From a virus, in the IMG/VR virus record IMGVR_UViG_3300032097_000030: DNA of 64,000 bases. One strand, given 5' to 3'. The position numbers and the translations under genes were made by a program. The notes under the pieces were generated by a model, which saw only the letters and a list, made by a program, of their open reading frames with translations, was not told where the DNA came from and did no database searches. How positions within the stretch are numbered: position 1 is the first letter of the stretch; each line of letters opens with the position of its first letter. This document shows positions 20,429 to 41,406 of this stretch, in pieces.

Positions 20429-22018
20429 CTATATCTTTGAATTCAGTTCCATTCCGTCCTTAAAAGTAAAAACAATCTCATGCTCAGGATGAACCGTCAC
20501 CGCATCCACTGTTGCATTCCAAAGTTCCTCATCAAATTCAGTCAAGAGCGTGTCACTCTTCTCCAACATCCGAATAAAAGCCCCTATACTTTCACGTTTG
20601 GCATTTCGTTCCAGCCGCTTATTATCAATCTCATCAAGTCCTTTTTTGGCGGCTTCATAACGTTCCACCAAGCTTGTATAATGCTGCTGGTATTCCCCCT
20701 GGTCAAGAGCAGAATGGGCGTTTTCCTCCACACACTTTCGGAGCAGTTCTGCCGCAACCTCACTTTCACTTTGGAACTTGGCGCTTTCTTTTTCAAACTC
20801 TGACGTATCGGTTAGGTCATTAATAATGGCTTCATAGTTTTGCAGGATTTCCCCTTTATTCTCAAGTAGGCTGTTAAAAGTATCTAAAAATGCCTCTTTG
20901 ATTTTATCTTCATAAAGGTGCGGTGTCTGGCACTTATTATTGTTTTTAAACTTATGATTGCATTGCCAAATGGTCCTGCGGTATTTGCTGGTAGAATGCC
21001 ACACCTTACTGCCGAAGAAGCCCCCACACTCACCACAGATAATTTTTCCTGAAAAACAACCACCACCCGTCTTATATCCCTTGGCATTTTTCCGTTTCTT
21101 AAGCTCATGCTGGACAAGATCGAAAACTTCCGGCGTTATGATTGCAGGATGACTGTTTTCCACGTAATACTGTGGAATCTCACCTTCATTGACCTTCTTT
21201 TTCTTGGTAAGAAAATCAACGGTGAAAGTCTTCTGAAGCATCGCGTCACCTTTATATTTTTCATTCTGAAGGATGCTCGTTACGGTACTGGTTTGCCATT
21301 TCTGTTTGCCCGATGGCGTCAGTATGGAACTTTTCGTAAGATGCCTTGCTATACCCGAAGGAGTCTTACCTTCAAGGAACAATTTATAAATCAACCGCAC
21401 TGTTTTGGCTTCCGATTCAACAATCTTAGGAAGCCCATCATCACCCTTTTCGTAACCAAGGAATCTTCCGTAGGGTAGGCTAATCTTTCCATCAGCAAAC
21501 CGCTTTCTTTGACCCCAGGTAACGTTCTCTGAAATACTCCGACTCTCTTCCTGGGCCAAGCTGGACATGATGGTTATAAGCAGTTCACCCTTGCTGTCCA
21601 TGGTGTGGATGTTTTCCTTCTCGAAGTAGACTTCCACGCCTTTTTCTTTAAGCTGTCGGACGGTGCTAAGAGTATCAACAGTATTTCTGGCAAATCGGGA
21701 TACTGATTTTGTAATAATAAGGTCGATTTTACCGATCAGAGCGTCGGCTATCATCCTGTTGAAACCTTCACGCTTTTTTGTGCTTGTAGCTGATATACCT
21801 TCATCGGCATAGACTTCTACGAATTCCCAAGCCGGATTTGATTTGATGTGCCTCGTGTAATAATCTACCTGCGCCTCGTAGCTTGAAAGCTGTTCGTCAT
21901 TGTCCGTTGAAACCCTTGCGTAGGCGGCAACCCGTCTTGTGGCTGGAGTTCCGGCAGTTATCGGTGCAAAGCGTTCTGCTGTTGCCGGAATAACTTTTAC
22001 TGCTCTTGCTGAACACAT
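20429..22018 (-). CDS. large serine recombinase (prophage integrase module)
   Basis: AYARVSTDNDEQLSSY, NEKYKGDA, CGECG. Confidence 0.93.
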   Translation of the reverse strand: MCSARAVKVIPATAERFAPITAGTPATRRVAAYARVSTDNDEQLSSYEAQVDYYTRHIKSNPAWEFVEVYADEGISATSTKKREGFNRMIADALIGKIDLIITKSVSRFARNTVDTLSTVRQLKEKGVEVYFEKENIHTMDSKGELLITIMSSLAQEESRSISENVTWGQRKRFADGKISLPYGRFLGYEKGDDGLPKIVESEAKTVRLIYKLFLEGKTPSGIARHLTKSSILTPSGKQKWQTSTVTSILQNEKYKGDAMLQKTFTVDFLTKKKKVNEGEIPQYYVENSHPAIITPEVFDLVQHELKKRKNAKGYKTGGGCFSGKIICGECGGFFGSKVWHSTSKYRRTIWQCNHKFKNNNKCQTPHLYEDKIKEAFLDTFNSLLENKGEILQNYEAIINDLTDTSEFEKESAKFQSESEVAAELLRKCVEENAHSALDQGEYQQHYTSLVERYEAAKKGLDEIDNKRLERNAKRESIGAFIRMLEKSDTLLTEFDEELWNATVDAVTVHPEHEIVFTFKDGMELNSKI

Positions 22019-23324
22019 GTAGCTTTCCTCCTTTCCAGTATTTTAGCTGGCGTTCCCGGGCCTGCTGACGGGCTTCTTCACTCCAGCTTTCACTGCGTGA
22101 TTTGTTCTGCCATTCCTTTTGGACAGTGCGGCCGTCACGGAAAACAAATACCAGCAGGTTAGAATCAATAGCCTGTATTTCCTTTATCTTTTGCTCAAAT
22201 ACCGTTTCATCAAACTCTTTAAGTCCTAATACCTCTACAGCTATCGAAAGCAGGATGTCCTCGGGGATTTGCTTGGTATGGCAGCTATCCTTGCCATATC
22301 GCAGGTAGGTAGAGCATTTCCATGAAGCCCGCCCGCATGCAGCTTTTCGGTTATAATTTTTCCCGCATTTGCTGCAGACAATTTTACTGGTGAAAGGGTA
22401 TTGCTTGGGGTCATTTTTTCCAGCATTACTATCTCTGTTTTTAGCCATAATCCCCTGAGCTTTTTGGAAAGTAATCTCATCAATTATTGGTGGATGGGTG
22501 TTTTCAGCATAATATTTTGGAAGCATACCTTTGTTGCGCACCAATGTCTTTGTCAAATGGTCTTTAACATACTTTTTCTGAAGCAACGCATTCCCTGCGT
22601 ATTTTTCATTTTTGATGATCTCCGCAACTCTCTCCGAGTTCCAAGTACCCCCTCGAGGTCGTGCAACACCCATACCAGACAACTTTTTTGCAATCAAGGT
22701 GCAGCCCATACCGCCGATATAATCTGCAAAAATCATGCGAACTATTTCTGCCTGTTTGGCGTCAATTTCAATTTCACCATTTTCAATGCGATACCCATAC
22801 AAAAACCTTAAGTTTACAAGCTCTCCGTCAGCAAAAGCTTTTCGAATACGCCACTTGCAGTTTTCACTGACCGAACGGCTCTCTTCTTGCGCAAAAGAAG
22901 CGAGGATGGTAAGCATTAACTCACCATCCCCGCTCATTGAGTGGATATTTTCTTTTTCAAAATAGACATCAACATTGATGCTCTTTAACTCTCGTACCGT
23001 TTCTAACATAGTAACCGTATTCCTTGCGAACCTGGAAATGGACTTGGTTAGAACTAAGTCTATTTTACCGTTTCTGCAGTCGCTCAAGAGCCTCTGGAAC
23101 TCTGCTCTGTTATCTTTGGTGCCGGTCATTGCTTCATCTGCATAAACACCGGCATACTCCCATCCGCGTTGCTTTTGAATATAGTCGCTGTAATAACTGA
23201 TTTGAGCTGATATAGAGTGAAGCATTGCATCTTTGCCACTGGATACTCTGGCATAGGCGGCAACGCGCTTCTTAACTGGTATTGTTGCCTTTATTGGCTC
23301 GATTTTTCGGATGGTTCGCGCCAT
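21897..23324 (-). CDS. large serine recombinase; C-terminus extended by apparent 1-nt deletion near 22037
   Basis: AYARVSSG, TKSISRFARN, NEKYAGNA, CSKCG; tail diverges from the paralog at 11878. Confidence 0.9.
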   Translation of the reverse strand: MARTIRKIEPIKATIPVKKRVAAYARVSSGKDAMLHSISAQISYYSDYIQKQRGWEYAGVYADEAMTGTKDNRAEFQRLLSDCRNGKIDLVLTKSISRFARNTVTMLETVRELKSINVDVYFEKENIHSMSGDGELMLTILASFAQEESRSVSENCKWRIRKAFADGELVNLRFLYGYRIENGEIEIDAKQAEIVRMIFADYIGGMGCTLIAKKLSGMGVARPRGGTWNSERVAEIIKNEKYAGNALLQKKYVKDHLTKTLVRNKGMLPKYYAENTHPPIIDEITFQKAQGIMAKNRDSNAGKNDPKQYPFTSKIVCSKCGKNYNRKAACGRASWKCSTYLRYGKDSCHTKQIPEDILLSIAVEVLGLKEFDETVFEQKIKEIQAIDSNLLVFVFRDGRTVQKEWQNKSRSESWSEEARQQARERQLKYWKGGKLHVFSKSSKSYSGNSRTLCTDNCRNSSHKTGCRLRKGFNGQ

Positions 23325-25382: not shown

Positions 25383-27725
25383 TCACATATACATAAATAG
25401 TTGAATAAACAAACTGGCATTTATCCTACCTAAAATACTGCTGCCTAGCTCTAAATTATGCCAGCCTGGCGACGTTATATGGGGGGATAATTGGAGTTCA
25501 TTCTTGTTTTCGTTAAATGGCCCCCCAAGTTGCGCAGTAATATCAGTTCCGTCCAGAGTAATTGATATGTCAGCCGGGGCAGTTCCCTCATATATACCAA
25601 AAACCAAATTGTGAGTATGGTCCCCTAAAGAAACCATATGGCGATGATTCGGTAAATACATGTTGTGAGCATGAAACGGCAAAGAAACAGCGTGGGTATG
25701 GGAAACTGATAGCATAGCGTGAGCGTGATCTCCGGCATAAGTATTGTGAAGAATATGGTCATGATAGCCACTTTGTACCCATGAAACACTACCCGTATCG
25801 GTGATAAGGGTAGTGCCATGCTCAATTCCATGGTTATGCGTACCATCTTTCTCCATGGTATTATCGTGAAAATGATAGCCCGCCATATCCATAAAATCGG
25901 GTAATAGATACTGTGAGGGAGAGAGAATCCACAATCCAGGCTCGCTGGTATCTATGTCGCCGCCACCTGACTCAGTGGATGTAAAGGTATAACCACCATC
26001 TTCAGTGGATGCATAAACACCACCTCCTGATGCTGCTCCGGTTTCATAGGCTCTAAACCATTCCTTGGTAAAGCTGAGTTTAAACTGCTTACCATTTAAT
26101 AGATTGGCTCCAGGTGGAACATAGAAAATTATCTTAAGGGGATGAGTGGCATCTACATTATCTACTACATGCAACTGCCAAGTTTGCAGCATACCACGAT
26201 CATCTAAAATAACTGTCGTCCCATCTGATGCTGTAATCCTTAAACCAAAACGCTCTGTAGCGTCCACCTGCCAATGACCGGCATGGAGGCGTTCAATATT
26301 ATTCTCATCATATACATGTAAACCATCAGACATGATTTTGGTATATTCATCAGCGGTAGATAATGCATAAAGTTCGTTAATCACTACGGTACTTGATAGC
26401 ACACCTTCTCCGGTTACTGCTGTTTTGTAGCTTTGCCCACCGTCTTCAGTGATACCAAGTCCCCCTGGCGATAGGCGTACCCCCTTGCCATTTCGCCTGC
26501 CTTCAGCATCAATGCCCCAAAAGTCTATTGTGTTGTCAGTAATAGTTAGCAGCCCATTTGTACCATTGATTAAGGTGGTGGCGGTATTGATAAAGCCTTG
26601 TAACAGGCTATTGGCATGGCGGTTCCGGGTAATTATTCTCGCAGTAGTCACAGCCGGTTTCACAGCATCACTTATCTGCGGTTTCGGAGTTCCCACGTTA
26701 ATGCTGTTTCTCTGCGGTTCATAGGGGTATTCAACCATTTCAATTACTCGTACCCTTAAGCGTACAGAGATATCTTGCGGCCCGGTATATTCTACCGTTA
26801 CCCAATCCCCCACCTCTATTTTATAAAGGGCCTCAGCATACAAGCGGTAAAGGTCAGCCAGCTTCACACTCACACTAAGCTTGGGCCAAGCGACGACCGC
26901 GAGCTTTCTTCGCCCCTGCTCCAACAATTCACTAGGGTCAGCGATCTTGTCATAGGTAACCACATCTTCTCGCACCAAACGCTCCCTTATGATGCTGTCA
27001 GCCGTGTTGTAGCCGAGGGCTGTGAAAAAGGAGAAGTTTTCAATATAGCTATAGCCACCATTGACACTAGCGATATCTACGCCATCCTTTCCTTTCACAT
27101 ATAGCCTGGTTACCAGCCCCTTCGAGTCGTAGCTTAAATCCAAGCTGGCTAAATTTCTTCCTGAACGAATAGTCACCCCGTTATCCTGGCCAATATCGTT
27201 ATATAGGCTCACTGTTTTTTCCAGAGTATCAAATTGCACGAAAGGCCCGTAACAATATTCCTCCACTGCCCCGTATAGTTTAAGTAGCTCGTTTAAAGCT
27301 TCCAGACGATTAAGATTTTCCAAACGGACATCACGGAGAGTGGTGATAGTGGGGTCGCAATACTTTAAAGTCCAGCCCGTATTCTCAAGTACCCTGGCTA
27401 CTGCATAGCTCATACTAGCATTAGAAAAGGCTAGCTCGCCGTCAATATAGCGATAGAGCAGTTCCTCTGCTGAACACACACAGGATACACTGATAAACCC
27501 CTCATCTGTCAAAGTGGCTGAAGGGCTTTTTATGATATACTCACTACCCTCAAAGTAAATTCTGTTTTCGCTTTCGATAAGCCGCAGGGTCTTTTCATTA
27601 ACCAGGCAATTAAACTTTAGGGTGCTCATGCCATTACTACTTCTTACCCGACAAAAATCACTTAGTTCCTTTTGTCCCAAATAGCCTAATCGCTTGATAC
27701 CAGCTGCATCATATATCTCAAGCAT
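25383..27725 (-). CDS. tail spike/Tal (prophage endopeptidase tail-like) with C-terminal HxH repeats
   Basis: GVTIRSGRNLASL...LVTRLYVKGKDG, GDWVTV; eight HxH motifs. Confidence 0.8.
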   Translation of the reverse strand: MLEIYDAAGIKRLGYLGQKELSDFCRVRSSNGMSTLKFNCLVNEKTLRLIESENRIYFEGSEYIIKSPSATLTDEGFISVSCVCSAEELLYRYIDGELAFSNASMSYAVARVLENTGWTLKYCDPTITTLRDVRLENLNRLEALNELLKLYGAVEEYCYGPFVQFDTLEKTVSLYNDIGQDNGVTIRSGRNLASLDLSYDSKGLVTRLYVKGKDGVDIASVNGGYSYIENFSFFTALGYNTADSIIRERLVREDVVTYDKIADPSELLEQGRRKLAVVAWPKLSVSVKLADLYRLYAEALYKIEVGDWVTVEYTGPQDISVRLRVRVIEMVEYPYEPQRNSINVGTPKPQISDAVKPAVTTARIITRNRHANSLLQGFINTATTLINGTNGLLTITDNTIDFWGIDAEGRRNGKGVRLSPGGLGITEDGGQSYKTAVTGEGVLSSTVVINELYALSTADEYTKIMSDGLHVYDENNIERLHAGHWQVDATERFGLRITASDGTTVILDDRGMLQTWQLHVVDNVDATHPLKIIFYVPPGANLLNGKQFKLSFTKEWFRAYETGAASGGGVYASTEDGGYTFTSTESGGGDIDTSEPGLWILSPSQYLLPDFMDMAGYHFHDNTMEKDGTHNHGIEHGTTLITDTGSVSWVQSGYHDHILHNTYAGDHAHAMLSVSHTHAVSLPFHAHNMYLPNHRHMVSLGDHTHNLVFGIYEGTAPADISITLDGTDITAQLGGPFNENKNELQLSPHITSPGWHNLELGSSILGRINASLFIQLFMYM

Positions 27726-27738
27726 CTTATCACCACCT

Positions 27739-29691
27739 TTACAGCCACATTTCCGAAAACTCTATCTCTAAGTTTCCAGCGGAGGTACTGATCTCAGTTT
27801 CGCCCGGTTCAAGATATAAAAAATCCCCTTCAGCCAAATGTGCTGCCGGGGCACCGTTTAAGGTGATTTCTAATTTTTCGCTATCCACAATAAATATATC
27901 GGTGCTGCCAAGTGATGTATTAATATATATCTGGCTGTCACCGATGCTAATTACCGGAAATTCTGCCGGACCAGTAAGGGTTAACCTGAGAGGCGTTTTT
28001 TGTGAACCCCGGTTTAATAGCCAAACGCTACCTGAGGTTTTGTAATACTGGGGTACACCATAAATAAAAGGTTTCGAACAATTGAATTGAAGATTAAGTA
28101 TTTCCATTGAACCGACAGTTTCCATGACGGTTTTCCCCCGAAGCCTTCCTTTATAAACATTGAAATACTCATCATCAAAGCGAAGCTCACATTCTCCCTT
28201 TTTGGGATTAAGCAAAGTATTTAGCTCCTTCTGGGCAGCTACTAAGGCCGACCGGCTATCATGCTTTAATAGGCCCTTTACTACAATGGTTCGCTCCTTG
28301 AATTCGGTGTGATGATAGTAGGTACCATCCATGCCAGGAAGCTTTGTGCTTGTTTCCTCCCCTTCAGGAATTTCCCAGCGCCCCTTAACATCAATGATGG
28401 AAAGTCCAAAGGTTGAGGTATCCACTCCGTCAAAATAAAGCTTTCTTGGCATACCGCTAGCAAAGGCTTCTAGATTAAAAAAGCCGGTGAATATACGCGC
28501 TGTCGCTACCATCTCCACCGTTTTATCTTCAAGTGACCAGTAATATAGTCCGTTGGAATTAGGGTCTAGACTATCTACCTGCACCTTCATCAACGCTTGT
28601 TCTGTTTTATAGTCATACGTCCCTCCTGTAAGACGAAGGGCCTCAAGGTAAAAAATAGTGGCTTGAGTAGCCAGATCGGGGAACTCGCTATCCTTTACTC
28701 CTGTATAGGTATATACATCATAGAAAAAGCCGTTTATCATTAAAGCTTTAGCCCTAGCAACAAAGATCGCGGCCCCACTGCCTTCATTTTTAGCCAAACC
28801 CAGCACCGACCACAGAACTGTATCTGAAGTCCAGTTAACATCTCCCCACTGGTTATATACCGGCGATAGGTTCTTGCCAGTATAATCACTTGTGCCTTCT
28901 ATGGGGGCCATATACATATAAGGCAGACCTACCGTTTCCATTACTCCCCGCTGGCTTTGTATGCAATTTGTGCGGATAAAGTTATGAAATCTATCATTAA
29001 TGTCCCCGATATAGTAAGTCCCGCCCTCAGCAGTTTGCTGGCTATTTCCAAATGCAGCTATTGCAGTTTGCACCAGGTCATAGGCAATATCCCCGAGATG
29101 CAGTGGCACACGCCCGTTAACGGGATAGAATTCTACTCCGGCATCTGTGCGGAGATAAAATTCAGGAAAAGCACCGTCCAAATATGCAGGCAGTTCGGTG
29201 CCGCAAAGGGAAGAAAAAGCAGTCTGCACTTTATAAATGCTCTCAATCAGCTTTAAAGACCACTGTTTGTAAGTATCTTCTCCACAACGAAGGTATAAGC
29301 GGCTTAAACCGTAAGCTGATAAGAACAAATCCCTTGTATATACCTCGCAATAACCATCATCTTTTCGTCTTTGCCATTGCTGATTATCAGTATTAAAGTA
29401 ATGTATGGATTGAAAGTACATGGTTTGGCCATTGACAGTAGTCTCGATAATATTATCAATCAAATTATCTGCGATTAGCTTAGCCTTATCTATCGCGTCC
29501 TTAGTACCATAGGAGCATAAGAAAATAAGCGTCCAGGCGCTGGAGGGAACTAGGGTGGCCGCTCTGGTTGCTTCCCCGGCACCCTCTGTATAATTAAGTA
29601 ATACCAATCCCAACGGGGGGTTAGGGAAAAGACGGTAAAAACTATCTGCGCTATCAGTGACAATCAGTTTACTATTCAATAGTTCTCGCAT
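27739..29691 (-). CDS. distal tail protein (Dit) fused to ~410-aa N-terminal helical-toroid domain
   Basis: C-terminal MPRKLYFDG..FGL...PGMDG...ERTI...F.CSKPFIYG...YLEPGET is Dit-like; no stop or evident RBS at the domain junction. Confidence 0.7.
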   Translation of the reverse strand: MRELLNSKLIVTDSADSFYRLFPNPPLGLVLLNYTEGAGEATRAATLVPSSAWTLIFLCSYGTKDAIDKAKLIADNLIDNIIETTVNGQTMYFQSIHYFNTDNQQWQRRKDDGYCEVYTRDLFLSAYGLSRLYLRCGEDTYKQWSLKLIESIYKVQTAFSSLCGTELPAYLDGAFPEFYLRTDAGVEFYPVNGRVPLHLGDIAYDLVQTAIAAFGNSQQTAEGGTYYIGDINDRFHNFIRTNCIQSQRGVMETVGLPYMYMAPIEGTSDYTGKNLSPVYNQWGDVNWTSDTVLWSVLGLAKNEGSGAAIFVARAKALMINGFFYDVYTYTGVKDSEFPDLATQATIFYLEALRLTGGTYDYKTEQALMKVQVDSLDPNSNGLYYWSLEDKTVEMVATARIFTGFFNLEAFASGMPRKLYFDGVDTSTFGLSIIDVKGRWEIPEGEETSTKLPGMDGTYYHHTEFKERTIVVKGLLKHDSRSALVAAQKELNTLLNPKKGECELRFDDEYFNVYKGRLRGKTVMETVGSMEILNLQFNCSKPFIYGVPQYYKTSGSVWLLNRGSQKTPLRLTLTGPAEFPVISIGDSQIYINTSLGSTDIFIVDSEKLEITLNGAPAAHLAEGDFLYLEPGETEISTSAGNLEIEFSEMWL

Positions 29692-29692
29692 G

Positions 29693-31693
29693 TTATTTAC
29701 CCCCGCTTGCTAAAAACAGGCGGTTCATCATTTCAAGATAGGCTGCGTATGACCAGGAAAAGGACCAGGCTCCGCTTAAATAGCCAAGCCTATTCCCATT
29801 CTTTAAATCTGCCTGCACATATTCAGGCAAGGACCCGAAAGGAAAATTATTAGCTAGAAGCTTAAGCGGCTTTAAATCACCCTCTTCAGCCGCTAACATG
29901 GCAATAATACAGACATGCGGAAACCAGATATCTTTCTTTTTTGCTGTTCCTGTGCTGCTTTGGGAAAAGCCTACCCCATGGTCAAGTTGTAACCCCAGCC
30001 CTCCCAGGGTTGCAACTGCAGTTCTGCTCTTAAGCCAATTGAAACATGACTTGTCATTAAGCATCCAGGCTGCGAAAATATTAGCTGGCACCGTTAAAAC
30101 ACTGTCATACAGCGTCCCATCCTGTTTAATAGCATAATCAAAGCCCCCGTCCTCCCGGCGGTAATCAGCTAACCCCTGCTTAAGAAGACTAAGTGCGTTC
30201 ACCCCAAAGGTAACCCTGCTGTTATCACCTAAGCTTCTATATACCGGGATAAGATTCTCAAGAGCATAAATCCATAAGATATCCACCATGCTTTCATATT
30301 TCACCAACGATGTTGTTATCTCACTAGCATAGTCATCCCAATAATCATGAACATGCCGGGCTAAAATATGTCTATCTGCCTCTATAAAATTGTCCTCTAG
30401 GTAGGTAAACAACTGATCTAGCTGCGGTTTTAACCCTGACAGCAATTGTTTATCATTAGTGTGCCTAAAGTATTTACCGGCTGCCGCCAGGAATACAGCC
30501 GCATTATCGGTGTTGTTATAGTTGTATTCCCCGGTACCATCTATATCAAAGTCGTTTACTGTTAACATGTTCTTACCTTCAAACCAGCTGAGAAACTGGG
30601 CAGCTAGTGCCGGTTTTATTGGGATGAGGGCATGGATCGCCCAGGCAGTATCACGCACCCAGTTATAAGGCCAATTGGGAATTCCCGCTGACAAATAGCC
30701 GCCCACCGACAAATTAAGGATTTGCATGAGAGAAAAATATCCCTTGGCCTTTATTGCTTCCGGGGCAAACCACTGCCTTTCTAAACCGGAAAAGTATTCA
30801 CACCACATGTTCTCTGCGTCCGTATATTCACTTTCCCAATTTGAGAGGCCAGCTACCGCTTTTTCCATTACCTCAGCCTTACTCCTGCCTATGGCGATAG
30901 CAAAAACTACACTACCGCGTTCACCCAGACCATCCGTACCCATACCAACAAAACAACTTGAATGGCTAACAGTAGTTTTAGTCTCATCCAATGCATAGAT
31001 AGGTGTGAACTGAACTGAATCCACCTGATATTCATTCATATTGGTGCAGCTTAAAGCCGCAAACCAGCCGCTATTATGTTCTTCTACCCAAATTACGCCC
31101 TGGCCATTATAAATCTCGTACGCTGCAGACAAATCATGTTTATCTGGCTGGCCGGAATCCCACCCTACCCATTCCATGGCAATCTTTAAATCATTGATGT
31201 TTTGGGCATCGGCAATTATGTACAGTACGTTATTTCGCGAAAAGGATAGTATATCTAAGGCACGTACCTTGCCGTTATAGTCCCTGGCATAGTGCCACTC
31301 CACAATACCGGTAGGATAGCCATCTTTACATTTAAACTTAGTTTCAAAACTGGTATTTTCGGAATTACAGGTGTTCGCTACCAAAGGATAGTAGCCCATG
31401 TCACAGGTTTTAGCCGCTATGGCCGTATTGACATCTCTTTTTCCCGACTTAGCTAACAGCATAGATAAGAAAGGGCGTATATCTACGCTGGATATCTGAT
31501 CATTTAGCACCATCGCTATTTCAGAAGTAGGGTCACTTAGTACGGCCCGCCCGGCAAAATCACTGTGCAAAGTTGAGTCATTAAGGCTAAAACCCTCTGC
31601 TGCTAAGGCTGAGGTCAAACGCTCCGGGGACAAATCAAGCACATAACCGTTTTTAGTGTTAATAATATTCGGTATATCAAAGGCGCTTCTCAT
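29693..31693 (-). CDS. six-hairpin (alpha/alpha)6 glycoside hydrolase, GH15/GDE_C-like, with N-terminal beta-sandwich
   Basis: AGIPNWPYNWVRDTA, D..AVFL.A..KY...TND, DYWDD, GSLPEY, SWSYAAYL. Confidence 0.7.
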   Translation of the reverse strand: MRSAFDIPNIINTKNGYVLDLSPERLTSALAAEGFSLNDSTLHSDFAGRAVLSDPTSEIAMVLNDQISSVDIRPFLSMLLAKSGKRDVNTAIAAKTCDMGYYPLVANTCNSENTSFETKFKCKDGYPTGIVEWHYARDYNGKVRALDILSFSRNNVLYIIADAQNINDLKIAMEWVGWDSGQPDKHDLSAAYEIYNGQGVIWVEEHNSGWFAALSCTNMNEYQVDSVQFTPIYALDETKTTVSHSSCFVGMGTDGLGERGSVVFAIAIGRSKAEVMEKAVAGLSNWESEYTDAENMWCEYFSGLERQWFAPEAIKAKGYFSLMQILNLSVGGYLSAGIPNWPYNWVRDTAWAIHALIPIKPALAAQFLSWFEGKNMLTVNDFDIDGTGEYNYNNTDNAAVFLAAAGKYFRHTNDKQLLSGLKPQLDQLFTYLEDNFIEADRHILARHVHDYWDDYASEITTSLVKYESMVDILWIYALENLIPVYRSLGDNSRVTFGVNALSLLKQGLADYRREDGGFDYAIKQDGTLYDSVLTVPANIFAAWMLNDKSCFNWLKSRTAVATLGGLGLQLDHGVGFSQSSTGTAKKKDIWFPHVCIIAMLAAEEGDLKPLKLLANNFPFGSLPEYVQADLKNGNRLGYLSGAWSFSWSYAAYLEMMNRLFLASGGK

Positions 31694-33870
31694 AACCTCA
31701 CCCCAGTCAAATACATTTGTTCTTTTAAAAGCTCTGCTATCTTTTGGCTCAATTTATATATATCCAGGTCATTAGCCATTTCCATTCTTTCTACCGAGAG
31801 TAAGTTCTCTATCTGCAAACTAGAAGTCCGGCTGGTAGTTCTATCCGCAGGAACCGCCTCTTTTAAAATATTTGTATTGCCTAAGTTCGAAATACTTCCT
31901 GCTAGGTCCATGGCAGCAGACCTTATATCGGGAATACCCTTTTTGATGCCACTTTCCAGCATAGAGATCATATTGGGCATCCATCTATCAGCTTTACTGC
32001 CCGGCCCTTTTTCAGTTGGCGAGGAAAAGCCTAGGTATCCTTTCACGGTATCTGCTACCCTTGCAGTAGCATTTCTTACCCATTTAATACCGGATAAGAT
32101 GCCATCAGCAATATTCTTTATAAGATTTGCTCCCCACTGGGCACCGTTAGAGATAAAATCAGCCACCCATGATTTAACGCGGTTAAATGTAGTTTGAATG
32201 CTTGAGACGATACTTGAAGCGGTGCTTTTAATGCCGTTGTAAATCCCGGTAAACCACCGGCCAATAGCAGCCAATAGATTATTGATAAAGGTGCGAAACT
32301 GCTCGCAATTCTCATAAAGATACTTAAATGCTCCGGCAAAGGGATTAACCATCAAGAGCAAGATGCTCTGCCAATTATCTTTAAAGAAACTAACCACGTT
32401 GTTAAACAGATTGACCATAAAATCAATAGCCTTATTAACTCCATCAACAATTCCATCCCAGATAGCGATAACCGCCTTTTTAAAGTCTTCATTGGTATTC
32501 CATAGATAGACGATTGCTGCCACCAATGCGGCCAGGGCGATAACAACAAGACCTATGGGATTGGCTGACATGGCCGCATTAAGTAGCCACTGAGCTGCTG
32601 CCGCTGCCTTTTGAGCCACAGACAAAACGGTTGTCTTTATTGCTGCGATATTTTCCGCATCGGCAAGCCACTTCACAGCATTCACTGCAGCGCCGACACC
32701 ACTTGTGAGATTGCCCACAAGTGAAAGGAGAGGACCTATTGCTGCGGCAAAACCGATGAAGGAAAGAATCAGTATCTGCGAGCCGTTGTCAAGGTTTCCA
32801 AACCAATCGACTAAACCAGTCAGCTTTCCAATAAGGCCCTCGATGGCAGGCATGGCCGAATTGACCGCCTGCATCAAAGATGAACCGAGTGGCTCTAATG
32901 CAACAGCAGCCCTGTTTTTCATTATGGTCAGCTGCTCAGCAAAATCTATGGTTTCAAAAGCGGCTCCGTTGATAGTTTCACTGCTCGTTTGTAAGGTTTT
33001 CACTAGATCTGACAGTTCAAACCTGCCTTCCCTAATGGCAGCAGCCATATCGGGGCCTATGCGAGTACCGAACATTTCAAGGGCGATGGCATTGGCTTCA
33101 CCGGTGGAGCCTGCCTCCTTTATTCTTTTAGTAACCTCTTCAAGAGCCGCCTTGGTATCGGTAATACCTTCTTGGGCCATCTTGCCCAGTGCTATACGAA
33201 GTCCGCCAAGCACTAGCTCGGTGTTGACCCCTTCCTTTTCAAACTTACCGAGCATAGCAGCTGAGGTCTCTAGGTCAAAGCCCATTTGACGAAGTGGCGC
33301 TCCAAACTCCACCATCTTGGCGTTCAGATCATTAAAACCAATTCCGGTGCTTTGGGCAACCTTAAACAAATAGTCCATGGTGCCTGCAGTATCACCGGCC
33401 GCCACACTCCAGTCTCCAAAAAGGCGCGATGAACTTGATATCATACCTGATAAATCCTCTCCAGTAATGCGAGAGAGGTTCAGCATCTGGGTGGATAACT
33501 CCTGCAGTGGTTTGCCTGCAAGCCCGGTTCTCGTATTAAGATCGGCAATGGCAGTGCTCACATCCTCCATTCCAGCCGGAACGGAAGCATAAACTGCCTT
33601 GAAATCATCCTGAAGGTCCTGAAGTGCTGCACCTGTGGCTCCGGTTCCGACTCGAATTTTCTCGAAAGTATCATCAAAGTCCATCCCCAGCTTTAAAATT
33701 CCTGTGGTAGCGGCGGCGATGGGAAGAGTCAGCCCCTTGGTTAAGGTGCCACCAATGGAAGCGAGGCTTTTACCGGCTTTATCCAATTTTTTTGCAGCAC
33801 TGTTCAAGCTTTTTTGTAGCTCTGAAATATCCGCTCCGATTTTCACCACAACACTTCTAATTACTGCCAT
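31690..33870 (-). CDS. tape measure protein (726 aa)
   Basis: VVKIGADIS..Q, IGGTLTKGLTLPI, Ala/Gly-rich helical repeats, hydrophobic segments, GFSSPT..GP. Confidence 0.9.
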   Translation of the reverse strand: MAVIRSVVVKIGADISELQKSLNSAAKKLDKAGKSLASIGGTLTKGLTLPIAAATTGILKLGMDFDDTFEKIRVGTGATGAALQDLQDDFKAVYASVPAGMEDVSTAIADLNTRTGLAGKPLQELSTQMLNLSRITGEDLSGMISSSSRLFGDWSVAAGDTAGTMDYLFKVAQSTGIGFNDLNAKMVEFGAPLRQMGFDLETSAAMLGKFEKEGVNTELVLGGLRIALGKMAQEGITDTKAALEEVTKRIKEAGSTGEANAIALEMFGTRIGPDMAAAIREGRFELSDLVKTLQTSSETINGAAFETIDFAEQLTIMKNRAAVALEPLGSSLMQAVNSAMPAIEGLIGKLTGLVDWFGNLDNGSQILILSFIGFAAAIGPLLSLVGNLTSGVGAAVNAVKWLADAENIAAIKTTVLSVAQKAAAAAQWLLNAAMSANPIGLVVIALAALVAAIVYLWNTNEDFKKAVIAIWDGIVDGVNKAIDFMVNLFNNVVSFFKDNWQSILLLMVNPFAGAFKYLYENCEQFRTFINNLLAAIGRWFTGIYNGIKSTASSIVSSIQTTFNRVKSWVADFISNGAQWGANLIKNIADGILSGIKWVRNATARVADTVKGYLGFSSPTEKGPGSKADRWMPNMISMLESGIKKGIPDIRSAAMDLAGSISNLGNTNILKEAVPADRTTSRTSSLQIENLLSVERMEMANDLDIYKLSQKIAELLKEQMYLTGVRL

Positions 33871-40386: not shown

Positions 40387-41406
40387 TTACTCAATTGAAA
40401 GACTCCCTGCGAACGAATAATGAATTACGCAATTCTTTGGTGTGTTTTTGTACGCCTCTTCGTCGTGCATCTTTTTTACAATTTGTGGAGTGGTAAGTTC
40501 CCCGAATTCATTAATAATCTTATCAATTGAAGCAATCTCATCATCTGAAAGGTTCTTAATTTCAAAACCTGGAGTCGGCTTAAATTTATAGGCAATTTCG
40601 TCATATAAAACGATATCAAAACTGACTCCTTCTAACTTTACAATTTGGTCATGCCCCTCTGGTACAGCGCCCATAGGTAATGCACTATACGCAAGACCTG
40701 TTATTGCGTTTCCATGCCTTTTAAAGTTTAATATGTCTGAGTACCACAACATCTTCATAAGTTTCACCTTGTGAAGATTACTAACTCTTTGGGCAAGATA
40801 ATTAATGACTTCAACAACTTTATCAAGCCTTAGTTCCATAGAGCCAGGCACAGTTTCTTCTTCAAAGTCGGCATAAATTGCATAGATTGCGTCTATAAGA
40901 TATTGGTTCTTTCTTTTATTGTATTCTTCATTAGCCTCATGAAAATATTTAGCAAAAGCTTTTTCTGATAATCTATCTTTTGCTCTTTTAAGCATATCCA
41001 GTAACCATTTGGGGTCCGAGTCAATTTTTCTTAAAACATCATCATGAGCTCTATCCTGTACTTGATGGTTTTCATATCGTGTTATTGTGGCTCCTCCCCA
41101 ATCAAGGATTTCAGAAAAGTCTTTTTGGCTAATTCCGTACTTTTCTCTTAAATTCTTGATCTCACTGGAGGTTAATAAACCCATTTTCTTTCTATAAGCA
41201 TCTTTTACAGCAAGGTTATTTGCTCTAATCATATCCTCTGTTTCCAACAATTCATCCGTGTTAGAGCAATATTCATAGATGGATGTGATTTCTACCTCGC
41301 CGCCCTTAAAAATCTCTTTCTCCTCAATTTCAACAATACTTACATCATGTTCTTCCATACAACTCAAACAGAGTTTGTGCTCGCTTCTTAAAGTTTCCAT
41401 TTTCAT
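40387..41406 (-). CDS. antitoxin: MqsA-like Zn ribbon + XRE HTH + DUF4065/Panacea-like domain
   Basis: CLSC...YCS; REKYGISQKDFSEILDWGGATITRYE; KLMKMLWYSD...ITG..Y...PMGAVP. Confidence 0.8.
   Translation of the reverse strand: MKMETLRSEHKLCLSCMEEHDVSIVEIEEKEIFKGGEVEITSIYEYCSNTDELLETEDMIRANNLAVKDAYRKKMGLLTSSEIKNLREKYGISQKDFSEILDWGGATITRYENHQVQDRAHDDVLRKIDSDPKWLLDMLKRAKDRLSEKAFAKYFHEANEEYNKRKNQYLIDAIYAIYADFEEETVPGSMELRLDKVVEVINYLAQRVSNLHKVKLMKMLWYSDILNFKRHGNAITGLAYSALPMGAVPEGHDQIVKLEGVSFDIVLYDEIAYKFKPTPGFEIKNLSDDEIASIDKIINEFGELTTPQIVKKMHDEEAYKNTPKNCVIHYSFAGSLSIE

What the first reader, a model, noticed from the sequence alone, without database searches (positions are those of the whole stretch)
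27739..29691. Dit protein fused to a ~410-aa alpha/alpha-toroid domain
Seen: a Dit-like ~237-aa C-terminus (from MPRKLYFDG) in frame behind a helical domain with EVYTRD...LY...G...Y, WTSD..LW and Q......NGLYYW patterns. Established: decorated Dits usually carry internal carbohydrate-binding inserts. Inference: an N-terminal six-hairpin glycosidase/lyase-like domain, probably displayed in six copies at the tail tip, is atypical.
Basis: partly seen in the sequence, partly recalled or inferred. Interest (0 to 1): 0.75.

Follow-up and report, generated by a model that had tools for sequence, protein, structure and literature searches.

The report
Sugar-enzyme-like barrel fused to phage Dit
A prophage tail-tip ring protein (Dit) carries a 410-residue sugar-enzyme-type barrel on its front end, while most related prophages encode the same barrel cut in two, with its last piece on the Dit protein, which suggests a previously undescribed way of mounting a glycan-acting module on a phage baseplate.

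Summary
The ORF is on the minus strand at 27739-29691. It encodes 650 aa (72.9 kDa), lies between the tape measure/666-aa gene and Tal, and belongs to an apparently complete siphovirus prophage.

- **Dit part:** residues 414-650 are a classical Dit (Pfam Sipho_tail and SPP1_Dit; PHROG Dit 1.5e-32).
- **No internal start:** no in-frame internal start has a Shine-Dalgarno site, so the fused protein is the expected product.
- **Relatives are mostly split:** most relatives encode the unit as two genes cut inside the barrel, as 357-359 aa plus a 294-aa Dit, or 391 plus 267 aa. One lineage has two unrelated genes between the halves. The last helices, with the conserved W385 and E393, then sit on the Dit polypeptide.
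- **The window's junction:** it lacks 8 nt that are present in the split forms. A second fused homolog exists at 43% identity.
- **Selection:** all parts are under purifying selection (dN/dS about 0.1).
- **Distant homologs:** the domain also occurs in Tal extensions, a tail fibre and lectin-domain proteins.

Most likely this is a baseplate-mounted module that binds or cleaves a glycan. Activity and the six-copy display remain inferred. I rate it a new variant of a decorated Dit.

The parts
27739..29691 (-). Whole ORF: 650 aa, 72.9 kDa, pI 4.8; toroid-Dit fusion (P0001)
   Evidence: SD GGGGG at 29700-29704 upstream of the ATG at 29691 (duplex -9.9 kcal/mol)
28459..29691 (-). Residues 1-411: (alpha/alpha)6-type toroid with no Pfam or PHROG family. 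Conserved W106, E116, Y141, D201, Y258, N274, D284, D290, D325, Y327, W385 and E393 are all present
   Evidence: AF2 pLDDT 93.6; Foldseek and VIA-align; conservation in the 34-sequence alignment A3
28459..28620 (-). Residues 358-411: last part of the barrel (helices 361-369 and 394-411, W385, E393). In split relatives this piece forms the N-terminal extension of the Dit polypeptide
28621..28627 (-). AGGAGGG, the relic of the Dit ribosome-binding site of split relatives. The 8 nt that follow GGAGG in those relatives are absent here, and their ATG is ACG (T358, 28618-28620)
   Evidence: DNA alignment A4; duplex -10.8 kcal/mol
28590..28616 (-). Out-of-frame 8-codon mini-ORF behind the relic SD. 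Its TGA overlaps the in-frame ATG of M368 (TGATG)
   Evidence: M368 is the Dit start used in L011 and P0044
28441..28458 (-). Residues 412-417: short low-confidence hinge between toroid and Dit
   Evidence: pLDDT below 50 at 411-413 in the full-length model and at 414-418 in the domain model
27739..28452 (-). Residues 414-650 plus stop: classical-size Dit (ring domain plus galectin-like C-domain) with no inserted CBM
   Evidence: Pfam, PHROG and PDB hits; beta-rich model
29693..31693 (-). Upstream 666-aa gene, conserved next to the toroid gene in all relatives.
   Evidence: earlier finding e1-5355585; no sequence similarity to the N-domain
25383..27725 (-). Tal (780 aa, Prophage_tail), downstream partner of Dit. 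No separate receptor-binding gene follows before holin and endolysin
31690..33870 (-). Tape measure protein (726 aa)

Best explanation
The gene encodes one 73-kDa polypeptide. A complete (alpha/alpha)6-type toroid (residues 1-411) from an unclassified branch of the six-hairpin glycosidase clan is tethered by a roughly 6-residue hinge to the N-terminus of a classical distal tail protein (414-650).

Shown here: the ORF, both folds, the absence of an internal ribosome-binding site in frame, and purifying selection.

Inferred: Dit forms the hexameric hub between the tail tube and Tal, so up to six toroids would sit around the tail tip. There the conserved pocket (E116, D201, D290 and E393, with W106, Y141, Y258, N274 and W385) would bind, and probably cleave, a host surface polysaccharide during adsorption. 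It would act alongside the neighbouring 666-aa toroid protein and the Tal extension, since the phage has no separate receptor-binding gene.

The fused form is the covalent version of a unit that most relatives encode as two polypeptides. In those relatives the barrel's last helices are carried by Dit, which implies that barrel and Dit are physically joined throughout the family. My odds: real fused product 0.9; toroid fold 0.97; baseplate-mounted glycan-directed role 0.7; catalytic rather than binding-only about 0.55.
For: ORF and Dit identity.

Fold:
- pLDDT 93.6, pTM 0.93.
- Foldseek E 5e-8 to GH126 3ren, then 2-epimerases, GH76, GH88 and GH8.
- profile against GH76 4c1s, E 6e-8.
- members give weak hits to C5-epim_C, GH88, GH76 and GH127.
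- Atlas structural neighbours are six-hairpin families.

Full-length model: two confident bodies with a low-confidence hinge at 411-413.

No internal start: SD duplex energies are +0.1 (M368), -3.0 (M394) and -0.2 (M414), against -9.9 (own start) and -8.5 (Tal start).

Fused architecture is viable and old. P0009 is a 654-aa fused homolog, 43% identical end to end, in a syntenic tail module. Distant homologs carry the domain uninterrupted to about residue 405.

Physical coupling in split relatives:
- Nine Dit clusters keep the N-extension.
- The cut falls at 357/358 or at about 388.
- L011 has DUF4279 and DUF503 between the halves, yet its Dit keeps the extension.
- dN/dS is 0.04-0.12 for the fragment gene, the extension and the Dit core among split forms, and 0.07-0.10 between the window and L007.

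Glycan-directed role:
- The domain recurs in Tal proteins (P0013, P0014) and in a tail-collar fibre protein (P0019).
- It also occurs beside Laminin_G_3, F5/8-type-C, Big_2 and hyaluronate-lyase N-beta modules.
- The conserved acids lie at the end of the long loops, just before alternate helices, together with conserved aromatic residues.
- The alpha/alpha toroid is a recognised, rare depolymerase fold in prophages (PMC12491483).

The prophage looks complete: TerS, TerL, portal, ClpP protease, capsid, completion proteins, tail tube, TMP, Tal, holin and endolysin.
Against: There is no experimental evidence that the protein is made, incorporated or active. No catalytic residues could be assigned by homology: sequence hits to GH76 are out of register, and identity to all solved structures is 6-15%. 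The nearest structural neighbours (AGE epimerases/isomerases) act on free sugars, not polymers. The fused form is known from only two lineages. In the tree the window sits inside a clade of split forms (96/96 support). Its fusion may therefore be a secondary 8-nt loss in a prophage whose inducibility is unknown.
Confidence: 0.7

Rival explanations
1. Dual products. The relic ribosome-binding site inside the fused gene still loads ribosomes. They translate the 8-codon out-of-frame mini-ORF and re-initiate at M368 through the TGATG stop-start overlap. The cell would then make both the 650-aa fusion and a free 283-aa Dit, and the ring would carry fewer than six toroids.
For: AGGAGGG followed by an out-of-frame ATG gives the strongest SD duplex in the region (-10.8 kcal/mol). 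The mini-ORF's TGA overlaps the ATG of M368. M368 is the natural Dit start in L011 and P0044, which are 284 aa.
Against: 'TTGATG' is simply the conserved Leu-Met codon pair and is also present in split relatives. Re-initiation efficiency is unknown. There are no expression data. Ribosomes translating the main frame would compete with internal loading.
Confidence: 0.15
2. Accidental read-through fusion in a silent prophage. An 8-nt deletion joined two genes that normally work as separate proteins. The fused product is neutral or harmful, and the prophage no longer makes infectious particles.
For: The window is nested among split forms in the tree. The split forms share a homologous 8-nt segment that the window lacks. 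The fused allele of this clade is known only from this one sequence. Prophage remnants of this family exist (L010/L011, L016/L017).
Against: The deletion restores the frame that the domain needs, so the product is a complete barrel and not a disrupted one. All family-conserved residues are intact. A 43%-identical fused homolog shows that the architecture is tolerated over long times. The prophage's structural and lysis genes are all open.
Confidence: 0.12
3. Non-catalytic adaptor or lectin. The toroid is only a binding or scaffolding module, for example a dock for the 666-aa protein or a lectin for a cell-wall glycan, and has no enzymatic activity.
For: No catalytic pair could be mapped. No His column is conserved, and no adjacent Asp-Asp pair as in GH76 is conserved. 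Known Dit decorations are binding modules, not enzymes (PMC7291167).
Against: There is one invariant acid (D290) and several 76-88% conserved acids (E116, D201, D284, D325) across 20-30%-identical homologs. The domain also co-occurs with lectin-type modules in large proteins, which is the usual layout of a catalytic module plus CBMs.
Confidence: 0.3

Closest known systems
'Evolved' Dits of Lactobacillus phage J-1, lactococcal 936 and streptococcal phages (as reviewed in PMC7291167)
   Same: A Dit that carries an extra glycan-directed module at the tail tip, in a siphophage of a Gram-positive host.
   Different: There the extras are beta-sandwich CBMs inserted in loops of the C-terminal galectin domain. 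Here a 46-kDa alpha-helical toroid precedes the N-terminal ring domain, and the Dit itself is of classical size with no insertion.
Six-hairpin (alpha/alpha)6 enzymes: AGE-family 2-epimerases/isomerases (5x32, 3vw5), GH126 (3ren), GH88 (1vd5), GH76 (4c1s), GH8 (1wzz; PssZ 6r2m)
   Different: Identity is 6-15%. No member reaches any Pfam family threshold convincingly. The family's conserved residues (W106, Y258, N274, D290) do not match the His pair of AGE enzymes or the Asp-Asp pair of GH76, as far as conservation shows. None of those enzymes is part of a virion.
Tal extensions and tail fibres with glycosidase domains (e.g. Listeria phage PSA Tal, per PMC7291167) and alpha/alpha-toroid prophage depolymerases (PMC12491483)
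   Same: A virion-borne carbohydrate-active module at the tail tip. Distant homologs of this very domain sit in Tal proteins and in a tail-collar fibre protein.
   Different: The carrier here is Dit, and the module is N-terminal. Toroid depolymerases are under 1% of the Klebsiella prophage depolymerases catalogued.
Split relatives of this same locus (L003, L007, L008, L018: 359 aa + 294 aa; L001: 391 + 267 aa; L011 with two genes in between)
   Same: Same two parts in the same gene order: TMP, ~666-aa gene, toroid, Dit, Tal. Identity is 69-76%, or 46% for L001.
   Different: They are two polypeptides, with the cut inside the barrel. The window joins them in frame because 8 nt are absent.

Membership tests
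Distal tail protein (Dit) of siphophages | N-terminal ring (Sipho_tail/RIFT-related) domain plus C-terminal SPP1_Dit galectin-like domain | tested here: met
   Pfam PF05709 at 51.4 bits (cut-off 24.2) and PF22768 at 41.1 bits (cut-off 25); PHROG 33 at E 1.5e-32; PDB 2x8k at E 1e-5
Distal tail protein (Dit) of siphophages | Gene lies between the tape measure and Tal in the tail module | tested here: met
   Order is TMP 31690-33870, 666-aa gene, this ORF, Tal 25383-27725. One extra gene and the toroid coding part intervene, unlike the usual immediate tmp-dit-tal order (PMC7291167)
Distal tail protein (Dit) of siphophages | Forms a hexameric ring in the virion | not testable with these tools
   Hexamer prediction exceeds the size limits, and no coordinates are returned
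'Evolved Dit' (sensu Dieterle/Hayes/Cambillau) | Carbohydrate-binding module inserted in a loop of the galectin domain | tested here: not met
   The Dit part is 237 aa. The two Pfam domains cover 426-538 and 562-649, leaving only 23 residues between them, and the model is all beta with no extra domain
Six-hairpin glycosidase clan ((alpha/alpha)6 toroid) | Barrel of paired inner and outer helices | tested here: met
AGE superfamily (GlcNAc / cellobiose 2-epimerases, mannose isomerase) | Pair of catalytic histidines on inner helices (from established knowledge of the family) | tested here: not met
   No His column reaches 70% conservation in the 34-sequence alignment. Caveat: no residue-level structural alignment was available
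GH76 alpha-1,6-mannanases | Adjacent catalytic Asp-Asp pair (D124/D125 in BcGH76; D136/D137 variant named in PDB 6y8f) | tested here: inconclusive
   The best sequence hits are GH76 (E 6e-8) but out of register. P0001 has D111-D112, but the pair is not conserved at 70% or more
Phage polysaccharide depolymerase | Degrades host capsule, EPS or wall polysaccharide | not testable with these tools
   Needs an enzyme assay. Only fold and context support it

The most novel reading that the evidence does not exclude
The barrel is a naturally split protein that serves as a baseplate dock. In most relatives the toroid gene stops 50 or 20 residues short of a complete barrel, and the missing helices, with the conserved W385 and E393 that probably line the pocket, form the N-terminal extension of Dit. 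The module would then fold fully, and its pocket would be completed, only once it is seated on the Dit ring. The window's fusion is the covalent form of the same device. Fusion, two different fission points and a two-gene insertion between the halves would be interconvertible states of one machine.
Probability: 0.35. Interest if true: 0.75.

Novelty: new variant of a known kind. Interest (0 to 1): 0.6.

Why it matters
Dit is usually treated as a passive hub that at most carries small lectin inserts. Here it carries a full enzyme-type barrel on its N-terminus, in a phage with no separate receptor-binding gene and a second toroid gene next door. If the barrel is active, that widens the known ways in which siphophages of Gram-positive hosts mount glycan-processing activity at the tail tip.

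The natural series of fused, split at 357/358, split at about 388, and split with two genes in between, all under purifying selection, is a ready-made system for studying protein-fragment complementation in virion assembly. It also defines an unannotated six-hairpin family (about 30 representatives among 1.8 billion) for CAZy-type characterisation.

Tried and rejected
- **Complex prediction of a split pair** (P0004 alignment plus residues 1-75 of the L003 Dit alignment): best ipSAE 0.10, 'no answer', controls not run. This counts neither for nor against binding.
- **Wider search for relatives.**
  - IMG/VR pattern scan: no relative.
  - GTDB species genomes: only the Peptococcaceae MAG that was already known.
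  - INPHARED tblastn: no match.
  - The host's family and class hold only 4 genomes, and none of the other three has a match.
- **Paralogy with the neighbouring 666-aa toroid gene:** rejected; BLASTP E is 0.4 or worse.
- **Programmed frameshifting in split relatives as the source of a fused product:** rejected. There is no slippery heptamer at GGTTATTGATG. L008 has a different spacing (TAA TC ATG). L011 has about 0.9 kb and two genes between the halves.
- **Separate Dit from M414:** rejected. It has no SD (-0.2 kcal/mol), and no relative starts there.
- **Polarity of the 8-nt difference:** unresolved. The tree favours a secondary re-fusion in the window. However, a fused ancestor is required earlier, because the barrel's C-terminal helices are read in the Dit frame in both split types, and distant homologs have the domain uninterrupted.
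- **Literature:** four full-text searches found no N-terminally decorated Dit and no toroid on a Dit.
- **Assignment of catalytic residues by homology:** not possible, because hits are out of register and no coordinates are returned.

Full report
**Observation.**
The plus strand of 27739-29691 is full of stops. The minus strand is one open frame of 650 codons, kept as P0001. Its ATG at 29691 follows a GGGGG Shine-Dalgarno site and lies one base after the stop of the upstream gene. The Tal gene starts 13 nt after its stop.

The product would be 72.9 kDa with pI 4.8. The identical protein is called on at least eight further contigs from other assemblies. A read-level check was not possible.

**Context.**
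The ORF sits in a siphovirus prophage that looks complete. On the minus strand it has:
- TerS, TerL, portal, ClpP-type protease and HK97-type capsid
- head completion and gp10-like proteins
- tail tube and tape measure (726 aa)
- a 666-aa gene with no family, then this ORF
- Tal (780 aa, Prophage_tail), holin and an Amidase_2-SPOR endolysin
- two serine recombinases

No separate receptor-binding or fibre gene follows Tal. I did not re-test that. I only showed that it has no sequence similarity to the N-domain.

**The C-terminal part is a classical Dit.**
- Pfam Sipho_tail covers 426-538 and SPP1_Dit covers 562-649, both above the gathering scores.
- PHROG 33 'Dit' scores E 1.5e-32.
- SPP1 gp19.1 (PDB 2x8k) scores E 1e-5.
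- Only 23 residues lie between the two Pfam domains, so there is no inserted CBM. This is not an 'evolved Dit' in the published sense (PMC7291167).

**The N-terminal part is an (alpha/alpha)6-type toroid.**
Pfam and PHROGs find nothing. An exhaustive HMMER search of 1.8 billion representatives gave 31 relatives. With a 34-sequence alignment, AlphaFold2 gave pLDDT 93.6 and pTM 0.93, with ten helices of nine or more residues between 48 and 411.

The structure searches agree:
- Foldseek's best matches are GH126 3ren (E 5e-8), glucose, cellobiose and GlcNAc 2-epimerases, GH76, GH88 and GH8.
- A profile of the alignment hits GH76 sequences at E 6e-8, though out of register.
- Individual members give weak hits to C5-epim_C, GH88, GH76, GH127 and GlcNAc_2-epim.
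- The ESM Atlas neighbours are the same families.

The toroid reading is therefore confirmed. The domain is an unclassified branch of the six-hairpin clan.

**Conserved residues.**
W106, Y258, N274, D290 and G331 are invariant across homologs that are 20-30% identical. E116, Y141, D201, D284, D325, Y327, W385 and E393 are 74-91% conserved, and P0001 keeps all of them.

E116, D201, D290 and E393 each lie at the end of a long loop, immediately before helices 119-136, 200-214, 289-317 and 394-411. By the known geometry of these barrels, that puts them on the loop-rich face that forms the substrate pocket. This last step is inference, because no coordinates were available. No His column is conserved, which argues against AGE-type chemistry. 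The GH76 Asp-Asp pair is not conserved either.

**Where else the domain occurs.**
- It occurs inside Tal proteins: P0013 after the Tal N-domains, and P0014 before them.
- It occurs in a protein with a tail-collar fibre N-terminus (P0019).
- It occurs in large proteins with Laminin_G_3, F5/8-type-C, Big_2 or hyaluronate-lyase N-beta modules, or pilin-like N-methylation motifs.

This is the layout of a catalytic or specific glycan-recognition module with accessory binding modules. It shows that phages mount the domain on several tail-tip carriers. The alpha/alpha toroid is a recognised but rare (under 1%) depolymerase fold in Klebsiella prophages (PMC12491483).

**Fused versus split.**
The closest relatives of the N-part (69-76% identity) are stand-alone proteins of 357-359 aa.

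| Locus | Arrangement |
|---|---|
| L003, L007, L008, L018 | Stand-alone gene directly followed, by a TGATG overlap or 2 nt, by a 294-295-aa Dit. The first ~56 Dit residues align with P0001 358-413 |
| L001/L002 (Peptococcaceae MAG, 46% identity) | Cut lies after the equivalent of E388 (391 + 267 aa) |
| L011 | Two unrelated genes (DUF4279, DUF503) lie between the 357-aa gene and a Dit that starts at the equivalent of M368 and still carries the extension |

Nine 90%-identity clusters of Dits carry this extension.

The barrel needs residues up to about 411, and distant homologs have the domain uninterrupted to about 405. The cut is therefore inside the fold. Helices 361-369 and 394-411, with W385 and E393 (or only the last helix and E393 in L001), are on the Dit polypeptide.

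Among split forms, dN/dS is about 0.09 for the fragment gene, 0.04-0.12 for the extension and 0.07-0.11 for the Dit core, with synonymous sites near saturation. The split state is therefore old and maintained. Window against L007 gives 0.10, 0.07 and 0.09.

**How the window differs.**
After GGAGG, the split forms have eight more bases (TGGTTATT, TGGTCTTT or TGGTTAAT). These shift the frame, create the stop and are followed by the Dit ATG. The window lacks these eight bases and has ACG (T358) where they have ATG.

A second fused protein, P0009 (654 aa, 43% identical over the whole length, in a syntenic module), belongs to the L001 clade.

A fused ancestor is logically required, because in both split types the barrel's last helices are read in the Dit frame. 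In the tree, however, P0001 sits in a 96/96-supported clade with split forms. The window's state may therefore be a secondary re-fusion. I leave the polarity open.

**Is Dit made separately?**

| Candidate start | SD duplex (kcal/mol) |
|---|---|
| ORF's own start | -9.9 |
| Tal start | -8.5 |
| M368 (in frame) | +0.1 |
| M394 (in frame) | -3.0 |
| M414 (in frame) | -0.2 |
| Out-of-frame ATG at 28616 | -10.8 |

No relative starts its Dit at M414. The fused protein is therefore the expected product.

One oddity remains. The relic SD (AGGAGGG, 28621-28627) precedes the out-of-frame ATG at 28616. The 8-codon ORF that it opens ends in a TGA overlapping the ATG of M368, which is the Dit start used in L011 and P0044. 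Termination-reinitiation could thus give some free Dit. I rate this at 0.15.

**Full-length model.**
pLDDT is 89.3 and pTM is 0.72. Both bodies are confident and the hinge is low-confidence (411-413 below 50). The belt hairpin (450-461) is also low, as expected for a monomer. The model indicates two rigid domains on a short tether.

**Mechanism.**
Shown: the fused ORF, both folds, a conserved pocket-like set of residues, selection, and recurrence of the domain on tail-tip proteins.

Inferred: Dit hexamerises (PMC7291167), so up to six toroids would ring the tail tip. There they would bind, and more likely than not cleave, a host surface glycan during adsorption. They would act alongside the adjacent 666-aa protein and the Tal extension.

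In split relatives the toroid fragment is most simply held on the baseplate by completing its barrel with the Dit extension. This is not shown, and the one complex prediction gave no answer (listed under Tried and rejected only).

**Comparison and novelty.**
The function resembles evolved Dits and Tal-borne glycosidase modules. It is not an evolved Dit by definition, since it has no galectin-loop insertion. It is a structural member of the six-hairpin clan but of none of its defined families.

No relative was found in 50,697 phage records or in IMG/VR (a pattern-limited scan). Only one other GTDB species genome has one. Four literature searches found no N-terminally decorated Dit.

I rate it a new variant of a known kind, with interest 0.6. 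The split-barrel docking idea is the more novel reading: probability about 0.35, interest 0.75 if true.

Noticed in passing
window 28590-28627 (- strand): A relic Shine-Dalgarno site (AGGAGGG) and an out-of-frame ATG open an 8-codon ORF inside the fused gene. Its TGA overlaps the in-frame ATG of M368 (TGATG), which is the start that some split relatives use for Dit.
   Followed up: partly
L011 864-3617 (also L010 4001-5563): Two non-phage-like genes (DUF4279, 137 aa; DUF503, 93 aa) are inserted between the 357-aa toroid-fragment gene and the Dit gene. The Dit still carries the barrel-completing extension.
   Followed up: partly
L016 3653-4882; L017 802-2031: A lone 294-aa Dit gene with the N-extension (P0012, six member sequences) sits directly after DUF503. 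It is flanked by metabolic genes (Rieske/FAD oxidoreductase, mannitol dehydrogenase) with no other phage gene in view. It may be a prophage remnant or a retained Dit.
   Followed up: no
L014 323-6825; L015: P0014 (1207 aa) has the toroid domain N-terminal to Tal domains. It lies directly after a tyrosine integrase. It is followed by a Peptidase_C1/Cu_amine_oxidN1 protein and an Amidase_2, then FtsK/SpoIIIE and Replic_Relax genes on the other strand. This is a Tal-like protein in what looks like an integrative or conjugative element and not a full phage.
   Followed up: no
window 29693-31693 (- strand): A 666-aa gene with no Pfam or PHROG hit is conserved immediately upstream of the toroid gene in every relative locus (665-682 aa).
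   Followed up: partly
window 40387-41406 (- strand): A 339-aa protein with HTH_3, a weak MqsA-like match and a SocA/Panacea antitoxin-type domain sits between the terminase and portal genes, a moron-like position.
   Followed up: no
window 20429-23324 (- strand): Two overlapping large serine recombinase genes (529 and 475 aa) lie at the end of the prophage after the endolysin and a small HTH gene. The same pair is seen in relatives L003 and L018.
   Followed up: no
BFVD hit A0A3S7URQ5; ESM Atlas cluster (465 aa, 104 members, 72% viral): One unnamed viral protein (TM 0.71, 17% identity) and one mostly viral Atlas cluster share this toroid shape, so similar modules exist in other uncharacterised phage proteins.
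   Followed up: no
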